From positions 6,578 through 70,577 of the forward strand of contig DAIUEJ010000007.1 in assembly GCA_036845225.1 (NCBI GenBank): DNA of 64,000 nucleotides, read 5' to 3'. The notes beneath the pieces were generated by a model. That model saw only the letters and a list, made by a program, of their open reading frames with translations, had not been told where the DNA came from and ran no database searches. This DNA comes from Candidatus Anoxymicrobiaceae bacterium (GTDB lineage Bacteria > Actinomycetota > Geothermincolia > Fen-727 > Anoxymicrobiaceae). The translations under genes and the position numbers were made by a program. Below, in pieces: positions 49,202-51,709 of the stretch; the first letter of the stretch is position 1, and each line of letters starts with the position of its first letter.

Positions 49202-51709
49202 CTAATGGAAGGCGCCGTCGCCGACCTTGCCCGTGAATATCGGCTCGTAGAAGAGCTTCCGCGCCTCCGGGTAATTGTCGAAGCTCATCTTGATCTGCTC
49301 GTTCAGGCGCATACCATGCTGGCGGTAGACCAGCCACGGTGGAAGGCCGTCCCTCAGTGCGACCGCCTTGATAAGGAGCTGGCCGAGGGTGAGCGTAACG
49401 TCGCCACCCAGCACCCTCTTGAAGCCGGCCTCTTCCTCGTAGGCGTCCCACGCGCTCTCGGAGTAATCAGGGAGGATGCCCTTTCGCCTGGCCTCCTCGA
49501 TGTCCATCGCCATCATCATCCGCTCGATCTCGAACACGTTGCCGATGGTGCCTATGGGCTTGCCGATGAGTCCGAGCTTCTCCACCACGTTCGCGACTAT
49601 GCCGATGCCCTCCTCCGGGCCGACCAGGCGCGTCTCGTTCTCACCACGCGATAGGCCGCCCGGGATCGGGGAGATTATCTCGATGCCGTTCGAGAGCCTC
49701 ATCGCCGACGTCAATCCATACTTGCCCGCGCCCAGCGTCGAGGGGTAGGCGAGGATCGAGTCTATCTTCACGTCGGGGCCTATACCGGCCGTGATCGACG
49801 CCCCGGTGCGCCAGTCCTCGGCGCCCTTCTGCATGTAGTAGTAGAGGCCCGCCCTGTTCGCGAGGAACACGCCGCCCAGCTTGGCGAGCACGACCCTCCC
49901 CTTCGGCTGGTACGATGCCGCCAGCGTCGCGGTTACCTCGAGCGGGTCGGGGACCGTGTCCGGCTGGGTCGAGCGGTGCGAGATGACCGTGTTCTTTCCG
50001 GCGCTGTGGAAGATTTCCATGTACATCCACGCCTGCGAGAAGCTGCCCACCTGGTTCAGTTTCACGAGCCCGGCATTGCACACGCCTTCCTTGAGAGCGT
50101 CGTACGCTATCGAGGGGTTTGTCACGATCACGTCATCGCCGATGATCAGCATGCGGTCTCCGAGGCGCTCGGTGAGCTTCTGCCAGAACTGCCACTGGGT
50201 GCGTGGCGCCGCGAACGGGTCCTCGAAGACGAGCTGGTGCCCCCACTTGTAGAACAGGTCCACGTACCTGTCCACGAGCTCGTCGCCGCTCATCTTCTGG
50301 CCCTGCCAGGTGTAAAGGTGCGCGTCCGAGTCGAACATGTCGTCCGAGTCAGCCGCGTTGTCGATGCCCAGGAACATGTTGTCGCCGTAGTTGTAGCCCT
50401 CGTCGACGCCTGCCTTGGCGGCGGCCTCCATGAGGAGCGCGATTGCCGCTTCATCGCCGCCACCGTAGCCGTTGAAGGAGCAGCCGCCCTCGTTCTCGCG
50501 GCCCCCGCCGGAGACGCCCTCTCGCGTGAGGATCTCCGCGGCCACCTGGGTCTGCAGCTTGGGAAGGACCTTGAGAGTGCCGAAGAAGCCGCGGTCCGCG
50601 ACCGGCACGTCCTCGCCCGTCTTCGGGAAGAGGACGATCCACTTCTCCTGTGCGACCAGGTCGGGGCTCGTGTTCCCCTTGTTGCCTTCGGCGTCGATGT
50701 ACTCGGTGTGCTTGCCGCCCTGGATCGCGTTGTGAGCGCCCTCGGGAAGATAGACCGCCATGTCCTTGTACCTGGGGTCGTCGCCGCCGTACACCGCGAA
50801 GTTACGGACCTCGCCGACCAGCCTTTCGTAGTTGGACTTCGCCCTCTTGCCGATCTCGTCCCGGCCGGCATCGACCGGCATGGTCCCTGCCGCGGCCTGC
50901 GCGGCGAGCTTCGCCTCGATCTTCCTCTTCTCGCGATAGCGGTATAGCGCGTTGGCGTCCTGGTGCCGGCCAAGGTAAGCGATGACCCCAAGGGCCAAAA
51001 TCTTCGGGGTCAGGTACGCCATGACCTCCGGGGTGCTGTTGCGCCCCAGCCCGATCGAGATCCCGAACAGCGCGAGCCCCGCGATGCCGAAGATGTAAGC
51101 CATGTAGAGGTCGAAGCGCGGGCCGGCGGCAGACACGTTCAGGGCCGGTGTGCCGTTGAGCCGGAAGTTCAAGCCTTCCCTGATGGTGGTCGGGTATTTG
51201 CCGGTGGGCGCCACGAAGAACATCTTGGCGAGTTCGACCCAGAAGCCGACGGTGCCCATCCTCAACTTGACAGTCCCGTCGGGCCGCTTCTCCACGAACT
51301 TCGCGCCGATGGTCTCCTGGACGGTCCGCTCCAGGTTGTAGGTCTTGGCGGCCTCCAGGGCGTGCATGCTCTGGTGCCCGCCGATCATGATGTAGGCAAA
51401 CGCCGCGGCGATGAGGATGGAGGTGCCGAACTCGAGCGCGAACCCGCCGATCGAGCCGGATATCCTGCTCGCGAAGGTCGGGTAGAAGATGCCTACCAGG
51501 ACCTGGACGTGCAGGGCGACGGCGAAGTATCCCCACTTGACAAACTCCGACGTGGACCACGAGCCGTAGAAGATGCCTTCGCGCCAACTCCTGGGTATGA
51601 CGAAGGAGACCATCGAATCAAAGCGGGGGTTGCCGTTGGCGTACGAGCGCTCGACGCGGGTCCGCCCCCCCGACCCTTTGCTGGCCTTCGGCCTGTCGCT
51701 CTGTTTCAT
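49202..51709 (-). CDS. Membrane-anchored, circularly permuted enolase-like protein with an N-terminal M50-like membrane domain
   Basis: Barrel motifs QGGKH, QE, NEGG, IDNAA, EDPF, GDDVIVTN, VKLNQVG, ISHRS, AKLGG come first; capping-domain motifs PGGLSRGENE and LGGDVTLTLGQLLIKAVA...GLPPW follow. The N-terminal ~270 aa are hydrophobic. Confidence 0.88.
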   Translation of the reverse strand: MKQSDRPKASKGSGGRTRVERSYANGNPRFDSMVSFVIPRSWREGIFYGSWSTSEFVKWGYFAVALHVQVLVGIFYPTFASRISGSIGGFALEFGTSILIAAAFAYIMIGGHQSMHALEAAKTYNLERTVQETIGAKFVEKRPDGTVKLRMGTVGFWVELAKMFFVAPTGKYPTTIREGLNFRLNGTPALNVSAAGPRFDLYMAYIFGIAGLALFGISIGLGRNSTPEVMAYLTPKILALGVIAYLGRHQDANALYRYREKRKIEAKLAAQAAAGTMPVDAGRDEIGKRAKSNYERLVGEVRNFAVYGGDDPRYKDMAVYLPEGAHNAIQGGKHTEYIDAEGNKGNTSPDLVAQEKWIVLFPKTGEDVPVADRGFFGTLKVLPKLQTQVAAEILTREGVSGGGRENEGGCSFNGYGGGDEAAIALLMEAAAKAGVDEGYNYGDNMFLGIDNAADSDDMFDSDAHLYTWQGQKMSGDELVDRYVDLFYKWGHQLVFEDPFAAPRTQWQFWQKLTERLGDRMLIIGDDVIVTNPSIAYDALKEGVCNAGLVKLNQVGSFSQAWMYMEIFHSAGKNTVISHRSTQPDTVPDPLEVTATLAASYQPKGRVVLAKLGGVFLANRAGLYYYMQKGAEDWRTGASITAGIGPDVKIDSILAYPSTLGAGKYGLTSAMRLSNGIEIISPIPGGLSRGENETRLVGPEEGIGIVANVVEKLGLIGKPIGTIGNVFEIERMMMAMDIEEARRKGILPDYSESAWDAYEEEAGFKRVLGGDVTLTLGQLLIKAVALRDGLPPWLVYRQHGMRLNEQIKMSFDNYPEARKLFYEPIFTGKVGDGAFH

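What the first reader, a model, noticed from the sequence alone, without database searches (positions are those of the whole stretch)
49202..50830. Circularly permuted enolase: TIM barrel precedes the capping domain, catalytic residues intact
Seen in sequence: the barrel block (~50830 to 49840) gives, in order, NAIQGGKH, AQEKW, ENEGG, GIDNAA, FEDPF, IGDDVIVTN, LVKLNQVGS, VISHRS, AKLGG and NRAGLY. These match canonical enolase NIINGGEH, IQEF, GDEGG, AMDCAA, IEDG, VGDDLFVTN, LIKFNQIGS, VISHRS, IKTGS and DRVAKY. It is followed (~49780 to 49320) by VKIDSI...RLSNG...PGGLSRGENE...LGGDVTLTLGQLLIKAVA...GLPPW, which is the normally N-terminal capping domain (KIVKI...PSGASTGSRE...FGANAILAVSLANAKAAA...GMPLY). 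Established: enolases have the capping domain first. The acid/base and Mg ligands appear conserved, but the DSRGNP loop Arg is lost, so substrate or regulation may differ (inference). I know of no described natural permuted enolase of this kind.
Basis: partly seen in the sequence, partly recalled or inferred. Interest (0 to 1): 0.95.

Follow-up and report, generated by a model that had tools for sequence, protein, structure and literature searches.

The report
Membrane-anchored, circularly permuted enolase
This gene encodes an enolase-type enzyme whose two domains are in reversed order (barrel first, cap second) behind a degenerate membrane-protease-like anchor; it is a divergent member of a widespread family that nobody appears to have described or tested.

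Summary
ORF 49202-51721 (-), 839 aa, has a complete enolase TIM barrel (res ~305-640; Pfam Enolase_C E=3e-25). After it comes a domain (res 652-799) homologous to the normally N-terminal enolase cap. The cap evidence is: hhalign 97%, E=8e-11 against canonical N-domains; an AF2 beta3-alpha4 fold; the top 50 Foldseek PDB hits all enolase or enolase superfamily; and distant relatives that score Pfam Enolase_C then Enolase_N above threshold. All 14 catalytic, Mg and substrate residues checked are invariant in 25 family members. Fifty independent assemblies share the layout, so it is not a misjoin.

This is a 4-TM domain related to Peptidase_M50 (site-2 protease). Distant relatives carry HExxH there; this clade has HQSMH or HHxxH, so it is probably proteolytically dead.

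The near clade occurs in only 14 GTDB species, all uncultured Actinomycetota. The wider M50 + permuted-enolase family (~810 aa) is common in Terriglobales, Elusimicrobiota and Planctomycetota MAGs, always labelled "hypothetical" or "enolase". I found no literature on it.

Most likely it is a cytoplasm-facing, membrane-tethered 2-PG/PEP enolase. Activity is untested. It is a new variant of a known kind.

The parts
49202..51721 (-). Whole ORF, 839 aa from GTG at 51721. Identical database proteins are 835 aa, so the real start is probably the ATG at 51709 (Met5). The stop codon is 49202-49204.
50957..51559 (-). N-terminal membrane domain, res ~55-255. It has four hydrophobic segments (centres ~res 72, 103, 215, 241). 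It is related to Peptidase_M50 / site-2 protease through HExxH-bearing distant relatives.
51362..51376 (-). HQSMH (res 116-120), at the position of HExxH in distant relatives. Both His are kept in all 19 TM-bearing members. The catalytic Glu is replaced by Gln (7 members) or His (12 members).
50810..50956 (-). K/R-rich helical linker between TM4 and the barrel (res 256-304). The natural soluble forms of 560-599 aa start inside this linker.
49802..50809 (-). Enolase TIM barrel (res ~305-640). Yeast-numbered equivalents: H338 (H159), Q358/E359 (Q167/E168), E411 (E211), D454/E500/D529 (Mg ligands D246/E295/D320), K554 (K345), H582-R583-S584 (H373-R374-S375), K614 (K396).
49769..49801 (-). Short linker of ~11 residues (res 641-651) joining the last barrel helix to the first cap strand. 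This is the new junction created by the permutation.
49325..49768 (-). Enolase capping domain (res 652-799), normally N-terminal. It has three strands (652-660, 670-676, 681-685), a flexible loop and four helices. Relative to canonical enolase it carries a ~23-aa insert (res ~741-765).
49631..49672 (-). Active-site loop L1 equivalent, SPIPGGLSRGENET (res 684-697). S691 aligns with the Ser that binds the second Mg (yeast S39). The loop has low pLDDT, as expected for a mobile lid.
49205..49324 (-). Two extra C-terminal helices (res 800-839), ending in the conserved motif FYEPIFTG. They occupy the position of the canonical cap-to-barrel connector.

Best explanation
The gene encodes a three-part protein.

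(1) The N-terminus is a four-helix membrane domain descended from an M50/site-2-protease-type zinc protease. In this clade it has lost the catalytic Glu (HQSMH instead of HExxH) and one conserved Asp. It therefore probably serves as an anchor or pseudo-protease rather than a protease.

(2) Next comes a complete enolase TIM barrel.

(3) Last comes the enolase capping domain, moved from the N-terminal to the C-terminal side of the barrel. This is a genuine circular permutation of enolase.

The permuted module keeps every residue that canonical enolase uses for the two Mg2+ ions, for acid/base catalysis and for holding 2-phosphoglycerate. The positive-inside rule places it in the cytoplasm. The most likely function is therefore Mg-dependent interconversion of 2-phosphoglycerate and phosphoenolpyruvate at the inner face of the membrane.

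What is shown: the domain identities and their order, residue conservation, family membership and distribution. What is inferred: the topology, loss of protease activity, the substrate, and that the enzyme is active at all.
For: Barrel:
- Pfam Enolase_C E=3e-25.
- PDB enolases E~1e-24.
- Foldseek of the full AF2 model hits enolases at E 4e-12.

Cap:
- hhalign gives 97%, E=8e-11, res 652-799 <-> E. coli enolase 3-134.
- AF2 shows a beta3-alpha4 fold with pLDDT 86.6.
- All top 50 Foldseek hits are enolase or enolase superfamily.
- Canonical enolases match the family profile in two pieces in swapped order.

Intermediates:
- P0177, P0180 and P0185 score Enolase_C and then Enolase_N at 54-72 bits, above the threshold of 35.
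- 74 proteins have the order C then N, against 40 canonical proteins with N then C.

Active site:
- All 14 catalytic and ligand residues are invariant in 25 sequences at 58-93% identity.
- They align with canonical enolase once the sequence is un-permuted.

M50 link:
- The family profile aligns continuously through the TM domain of relatives that carry HEMGH/HELGH, AAGP and LLD motifs.
- 7 of 9 of those relatives hit Peptidase_M50 at up to 26.5 bits.

Topology:
- Four hydrophobic segments, with K/R-rich N-terminus, central loop and post-TM4 linker.

PEP connection:
- Giant relatives fuse the same module to PPDK_N and PEP-utilizers domains.

Not an artefact:
- 50 homologues from JGI, ENA, NCBI and Logan assemblies share the full-length layout.
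Against: - Pfam Enolase_N does not hit this protein itself.
- The eno equivalog model TIGR01060 gives only 97 bits against a cut-off of 300.
- The barrel is only ~29% identical to E. coli enolase.
- The lid loop between H338 and Q358 is ~14 residues longer than canonical, the DSRGNPT motif is replaced, and SHRSGET becomes SHRSTQP. Specificity could therefore differ.
- The M50 assignment rests on sub-threshold Pfam scores (25-26.5 bits against a threshold of 27.2). An M50-domain profile found nothing in the PDB by sequence.
- No conserved operon partner hints at a pathway.
- I could not check whether the host genomes also carry a canonical eno.
Confidence: 0.6

Rival explanations
1. The module is an active enolase-superfamily enzyme, but its physiological substrate is not 2-phosphoglycerate. 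It would act on another alpha-proton-bearing phospho- or hydroxy-acid.
For: - TIGR01060 scores 97 bits against a cut-off of 300.
- The lid loop after H338 is lengthened by ~14 aa, and the conserved DSRGNPT and SGETED motifs are replaced by other motifs that are themselves invariant.
- The family is long-diverged from glycolytic enolase.
Against: - Every residue that contacts the carboxylate, hydroxyl and phosphate of 2-PG in canonical enolase is invariant: the equivalents of S39, H159, Q167, E168, E211, K345, H373, R374, S375 and K396.
- Relatives are fused to PEP-handling domains.
Confidence: 0.2
2. The permuted enolase module is mainly a sensor or regulatory domain. It would bind 2-PG/PEP to report glycolytic state to the membrane domain, as CBS or PDZ domains do in other site-2 proteases. 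In this clade it would be a relic on a dead protease.
For: - The ancestral-looking relatives combine an intact HExxH M50 domain with the module.
- Known S2P groups carry ligand- or substrate-sensing soluble domains (established knowledge; Kinch et al. 2006, cited from memory).
Against: - A full catalytic set, including the acid/base pair, is invariant. Pure binding would not require that.
- Soluble forms without any membrane domain exist (P0037-P0050, P0172, P0174, P0176). In this clade the protease motif has decayed while the enolase site has not. This suggests the module works on its own.
Confidence: 0.15
3. The C-terminal domain only resembles the enolase cap by convergence, or the gene is an assembly or fusion artefact, so there is no true circular permutation.
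For: Plain HMMER finds no Enolase_N in this protein. Foldseek E-values for the isolated cap are weak, 0.015-0.16.
Against: - hhalign gives E=8e-11 over 121 columns with motif-level matches: the S of GASTG, E of REA, K of NKSKLGANA, and G-PLY/PPW.
- There is a graded series of intermediates reaching 72-77 bits on Pfam Enolase_N.
- All top 50 structural hits are enolase or enolase superfamily.
- The same layout appears in 50 close and over 100 distant proteins from independent assemblies.
- The cap is as conserved as the barrel.
Confidence: 0.03

Closest known systems
Canonical enolase (phosphopyruvate hydratase, EC 4.2.1.11; Pfam Enolase_N PF03952 + Enolase_C PF00113; e.g. E. coli Eno, yeast Eno1)
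   Same: Both domains are homologous. The Mg ligands, the Lys/Glu acid-base pair, the His/Arg/Ser/Lys/Gln substrate contacts and the Ser of the mobile lid loop are all conserved.
   Different: - The domain order is reversed (barrel then cap), with a new ~11-residue junction and new termini.
- The cap has a ~23-aa insert and an ~11-aa deletion, and the second lid loop is ~14 aa longer.
- The DSRGNPT motif is replaced.
- Only ~29% barrel identity, and 97 bits against a 300-bit cut-off on the eno equivalog model.
- It is fused to a membrane domain.
Peptidase family M50 / site-2 proteases (RseP, SpoIVFB, M. jannaschii S2P)
   Same: It is a multi-pass membrane domain. In the distant relatives, HExxH sits at the end of a TM helix, followed by an (A)AGP motif and a conserved Asp-containing TM segment. 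The soluble accessory domain hangs on the same polypeptide, like PDZ or CBS domains in known S2P groups.
   Different: - Pfam scores are just below threshold even in the relatives, and there is no hit in the window protein.
- Here HExxH is HQSMH and the LLD Asp is Gly, so proteolysis is unlikely.
- An enolase as the accessory domain is not among the S2P groups I know of (from memory), and none turned up in the literature searches.
Uncharacterised ~810-aa M50-like + Enolase_C + Enolase_N proteins of Terriglobales, Elusimicrobiota and Planctomycetota MAGs (e.g. P0185 = MDY7009657.1)
   Same: They share the three-part architecture and the permuted order. The window family profile aligns with them end to end.
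   Different: - They keep an intact HExxH.
- Their enolase module is much closer to canonical (TIGR01060 194-293 bits in the four membrane-bearing relatives tested, P0177, P0180, P0185, P0284, against 97 here).
- The window clade is a strongly diverged actinobacterial offshoot with a decayed protease motif.
Pseudo-proteases retained as membrane scaffolds (e.g. iRhoms/derlins in the rhomboid superfamily)
   Same: Analogy only. An intramembrane-protease fold has lost its catalytic residue but is kept under conservation; H116, H120 and E123 are invariant.
   Different: It is an unrelated fold and family. No function has been shown here.

Membership tests
Enolase (phosphopyruvate hydratase) | C-terminal-type TIM barrel recognised by Pfam Enolase_C | tested here: met
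   PF00113 scores 89.5 bits against a threshold of 21.5, res 393-586. PDB enolases hit at E~1e-24. Foldseek gives E 4e-12.
Enolase (phosphopyruvate hydratase) | beta3-alpha4 capping domain homologous to Enolase_N | tested here: met
   There is no direct Pfam hit. The homology is supported by hhalign (97%, E=8e-11), the AF2 topology, Foldseek top 50 all enolase or enolase superfamily, and intermediates above the Pfam threshold.
Enolase (phosphopyruvate hydratase) | Domain order: cap N-terminal to barrel | tested here: not met
   The barrel is res 305-640 and the cap is res 652-799.
Enolase (phosphopyruvate hydratase) | Three carboxylate Mg ligands (yeast D246, E295, D320) and the lid Ser (S39) | tested here: met
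   D454, E500, D529 and S691 are invariant in 25 of 25 sequences.
Enolase (phosphopyruvate hydratase) | Catalytic base/acid (K345, E211) and substrate contacts (H159, Q167, E168, H373, R374, S375, K396) | tested here: met
   K554, E411, H338, Q358, E359, H582, R583, S584 and K614 are invariant in 25 of 25 sequences.
Enolase (phosphopyruvate hydratase) | Score above the curated cut-off of the eno equivalog model TIGR01060 | tested here: not met
   97.2 bits against a cut-off of 300.
Enolase (phosphopyruvate hydratase) | Catalyses 2-PG <-> PEP | not testable with these tools
   This needs an enzyme assay.
Peptidase M50 (site-2 protease) | HExxH zinc/catalytic motif in a TM helix | tested here: not met
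   The window has HQSMH. Position 117 is Q or H in all 19 TM-bearing members. Relatives have HEMGH or HELGH at the aligned position.
Peptidase M50 (site-2 protease) | Pfam PF02163 above the gathering threshold | tested here: not met
   The window protein has no hit. Relatives score 20-26.5 bits against a threshold of 27.2.
Peptidase M50 (site-2 protease) | Third zinc ligand Asp in a downstream TM segment | tested here: inconclusive
   Relatives have invariant LLD...(A/T)DxG. In the window the first Asp is Gly and the second (D255) is kept. Which Asp is the ligand is not known.
Peptidase M50 (site-2 protease) | Polytopic membrane core | tested here: met
   Hydropathy shows four hydrophobic segments, and AF2 models them as helices.

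The most novel reading that the evidence does not exclude
The M50 + permuted-enolase proteins could be a new class of site-2-type intramembrane proteases whose activity is gated by a glycolytic enzyme domain that reads, or turns over, 2-PG/PEP. The window's actinobacterial clade would then be a pseudo-protease derivative that keeps an active enolase tethered to the membrane. In that case this would be both the first natural circular permutation of enolase and a direct physical link between central carbon flux and regulated intramembrane proteolysis.
Probability: 0.2. Interest if true: 0.9.

Novelty: new variant of a known kind. Interest (0 to 1): 0.75.

Why it matters
Enolase is one of the most conserved and best-studied enzymes, and its cap-then-barrel order is treated as fixed across the whole enolase superfamily. 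A natural permuted form with an intact active site gives a ready-made test of how the capping domain and its lid loops depend on chain connectivity.

The fusion to an M50/site-2-protease-like membrane domain is present in hundreds of uncultured Acidobacteriota, Elusimicrobiota, Planctomycetota and Actinomycetota proteins that are all labelled "hypothetical" or wrongly "enolase". This points to an unrecognised membrane-associated role for 2-PG/PEP chemistry, or to a new regulatory input for intramembrane proteolysis.

There is also a practical annotation issue. Automatic pipelines call some of these proteins "enolase", which could mislead metabolic reconstructions of MAGs.

Tried and rejected
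- Plain sequence searches with the cap alone found nothing: phmmer and a 14-sequence profile against the PDB, and Pfam on 14 members. The homology needed profile-profile comparison, structure and intermediates.
- A protein search with E. coli enolase, meant to collect diverse canonical sequences, returned only >90%-identical enterobacterial enolases. It was not useful. I took diverse canonical enolases from the representatives search instead.
- An M50-domain profile searched against PDB sequences found nothing.
- PADLOC defence models gave no hit for the window protein or three relatives. A defence-system reading was dropped.
- NCBIfam has no dedicated model for the family.
- I looked for a conserved operon partner in the window, L002, L004, L005, L006 and L022. 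None was found beyond local synteny with DUF6506 and DUF3795 genes among close relatives.
- There is no canonical eno in the 64-kb window.
- Literature searches on permuted enolase, S2P + enolase, Peptidase_M50 + enolase and Geothermincolia glycolysis gave nothing relevant.
- Misassembly is rejected, because 50 independently assembled homologues share the layout.
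Full report
**What is in the sequence.** The finding lies inside one long ORF, 49202..51721 on the minus strand, 839 aa from a GTG. Identical database proteins are 835 aa, so the true start is probably Met5 (ATG at 51709). The region has the same G+C content (~0.62-0.64) as the rest of the window.

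**The barrel.** Pfam gives a single hit, Enolase_C at res 393-586, E=3e-25. The NCBIfam eno equivalog TIGR01060 matches only the barrel, with 97 bits against a cut-off of 300. phmmer against the PDB returns only enolases, aligning res ~395-596 to chain residues ~190-380. A full-length AF2 model (pLDDT 74.9) searched with Foldseek against the PDB returns enolases at the top, at E about 4e-12. The alignments are ~320-355 columns with TM-score 0.55 normalised to enolase length, which corresponds to the barrel alone.

**The C-terminal domain is the enolase cap.** Plain HMMER does not see this. Single-sequence and profile searches of res 636-838 against the PDB found nothing, and neither did Pfam. 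Four independent lines establish the homology.

1. Profile-profile comparison. I compared a 14-sequence alignment of this region with an alignment of the N-terminal 145-155 residues of 25 diverse canonical enolases. The result was probability 97%, E=8e-11 and 121 aligned columns, with res 652-799 against E. coli enolase 3-134. Motif-level matches include the lid-loop Ser/Gly/Glu and the K-x-x-L-G-(A/G)-(N/D) helix.
2. Swapped-order matches. When the whole-family profile is run against canonical enolases, about 19 of them receive a second, weak match in a consistent register. Profile positions ~650-745 align to enolase residues ~4-100. In other words, the part that follows the barrel here precedes it in canonical enolase. 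A home-made canonical ENO_N HMM hits the window protein at res 666-790 (14.4 bits), downstream of ENO_C.
3. Structure. AF2 predicts three strands (652-660, 670-676, 681-685), then a low-confidence loop (PIPGGLSRGENET), then four helices. This is the beta3-alpha4 layout of the enolase cap. Modelled alone, the domain reaches pLDDT 86.6. Its top 50 Foldseek hits in the PDB are all enolases or enolase-superfamily dehydratases/racemases. Most align ~160-175 columns with probability mostly 0.9-1.0, though E-values are weak (0.015-0.16).
4. Intermediates. An exhaustive HMMER search of 1.84 billion representatives found distant relatives aligned end to end with this protein. In these, Pfam itself reports Enolase_C followed by Enolase_N above the gathering threshold of 35 bits:
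   - P0177: Enolase_C 344-618, Enolase_N 644-745, 71.7 bits.
   - P0180: Enolase_N at 64.2 bits.
   - P0185: Enolase_N at 53.6 bits.
   - P0181 and P0321, giant relatives: 76.8 and 52.7 bits.
   
   With local HMMs, 74 proteins in hand show the order C then N, and 40 show the canonical N then C.

**Active site.** After cutting the sequence and placing the cap in front of the barrel, the protein aligns along its length with canonical enolases. The correspondences, in yeast numbering, are:
- S691 = S39
- H338 = H159
- Q358/E359 = Q167/E168
- E411 = E211
- D454/E500/D529 = the Mg ligands D246/E295/D320
- K554 = K345
- H582/R583/S584 = H373/R374/S375
- K614 = K396

All are invariant in 25 family members spanning 58-93% identity.

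The differences from canonical enolase are:
- There is a ~14-residue extension in the loop between H338 and Q358.
- SHRSGET becomes SHRSTQP.
- The cap has a ~23-residue insert (res ~741-765). All permuted relatives share an insert at this position, which argues for a single origin of the permuted clade.

Residues ~55-255 contain four hydrophobic segments, modelled as helices. The family profile aligns continuously through this region with the distant relatives. In those relatives the aligned position of the window's HQSMH (res 116-120) reads HEMGH, HELGH or HETGH. It is followed by an invariant AAGP motif and an LLD...(A/T)DxG segment. Seven of nine such domains hit Pfam Peptidase_M50 at up to 26.5 bits, just below the 27.2 threshold. 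The precomputed annotation of many relatives also lists PF02163.

I therefore read this domain as M50/site-2-protease-like. The support is moderate, and a PDB sequence search with the domain profile found nothing. In the window's clade both His are kept in all 19 membrane-bearing members. The catalytic Glu is always Gln or His, and the first conserved Asp is Gly. Protease activity is therefore unlikely (inference). The N-terminus, the central loop and the post-TM4 linker each carry 11-12 Lys/Arg, against 1 in each short loop. This predicts an N-in/C-in topology with the enolase module in the cytoplasm (inference from the positive-inside rule).

**Not an artefact.** Fifty homologues at 58-100% identity come from independent JGI, ENA, NCBI and Logan assemblies. 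All have the same layout, and the cap is as conserved as the barrel.

**Distribution.**
- The near clade occurs in 14 of 185,579 GTDB species representatives. All are uncultured Actinomycetota MAGs, variously labelled Geothermincolia, Anoxymicrobiaceae or Acidimicrobiales.
- Some members are natural soluble forms of 560-599 aa without the membrane domain.
- The wider family of ~810-aa M50-like + permuted-enolase proteins is common. The 120 best hits to P0185 are all ~630-860 aa (mostly ~800-850) and at least 56% identical. They come from Terriglobales, Elusimicrobiota and Planctomycetota MAGs and are named "hypothetical protein" or "enolase".
- Giant relatives add PPDK_N and PEP-utilizers domains. 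This fits a PEP-related chemistry for the module.
- No dedicated NCBIfam or PADLOC model exists.
- Four literature searches found no description of a permuted enolase or an S2P-enolase fusion.

**Genomic context.** The gene follows an alpha/beta-hydrolase gene and a methyltransferase gene on the same strand. It converges on a DUF6506 gene, with DUF3795 and MFS genes beyond that. The DUF6506/DUF3795 neighbours recur next to an 87%-identical homologue. They do not recur in other members or in distant relatives. No operon partner informs function. The window has no canonical eno, and I could not scan the rest of the host genomes.

**Interpretation.** The best-supported reading is a membrane-tethered, cytoplasm-facing, circularly permuted enolase. 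Its anchor is a decayed M50-type protease domain. It most likely still interconverts 2-PG and PEP.

The architecture is secure (about 0.95). Catalytic competence and substrate are inferred from residue conservation (about 0.6). The main rivals are a changed substrate (0.2) and a primarily sensory or regulatory role inherited from HExxH-bearing ancestors (0.15). Convergence or artefact is very unlikely (0.03).

**Novelty.** The fold, the chemistry and both domain families are known. The new elements are the permuted order, the fusion to an M50-like domain, and the existence of a large unannotated family. I class it as a new variant of a known kind, of high interest to enolase-superfamily and intramembrane-protease specialists.

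Noticed in passing
P0204 (888 aa; representative protein): This is a tandem enolase with the order N-C-N-C. It is the textbook intermediate for circular permutation by duplication and truncation.
   Followed up: partly
P0321 (2163 aa), P0181 (1979 aa), P0187 cluster: These giant proteins combine the M50-like domain, the permuted enolase, and PPDK_N plus PEP-utilizers (phosphohistidine swivel) domains. No PEP/pyruvate-binding barrel other than the enolase was reported.
   Followed up: partly
P0182 (2099 aa): It contains two complete copies of the membrane domain + barrel + cap unit in one polypeptide.
   Followed up: no
P0035, P0036 (1111-1119 aa; alignment A1 columns ~920-1151): These two near-clade members carry an extra ~270-residue C-terminal extension and a longer N-terminus. 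I did not identify either region.
   Followed up: no
window 51353-51376 (res 116-123, HQSMHALE): E123 is invariant in all 19 membrane-bearing members. It lies i+7 from H116 and i+3 from H120, on the same helix face. It might replace the lost Asp as a metal ligand. This is unexplained.
   Followed up: no
window 48171-49104, and L004 10619-12728: A DUF6506 gene (convergent) and a DUF3795 gene lie just downstream of the enolase-like gene in the window, and again next to the 87%-identical homologue P0009. This looks like local synteny only.
   Followed up: partly
window 46873-48447 (-): The 524-aa ORF listed for the MFS_3 transporter overlaps the DUF3795 gene. Its Pfam match starts at residue 113, so the real start is probably an internal codon.
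   Followed up: no
P0186 (1390 aa): This relative has weak, sub-threshold HD-domain and ABC-3C CTD12 matches upstream of the membrane domain and permuted enolase. PADLOC gave no hit.
   Followed up: partly
P0175 (859 aa): This is another distant membrane-bearing branch in which the HExxH position reads QQLST, with both His lost. The protease motif has therefore decayed more than once in the family.
   Followed up: no
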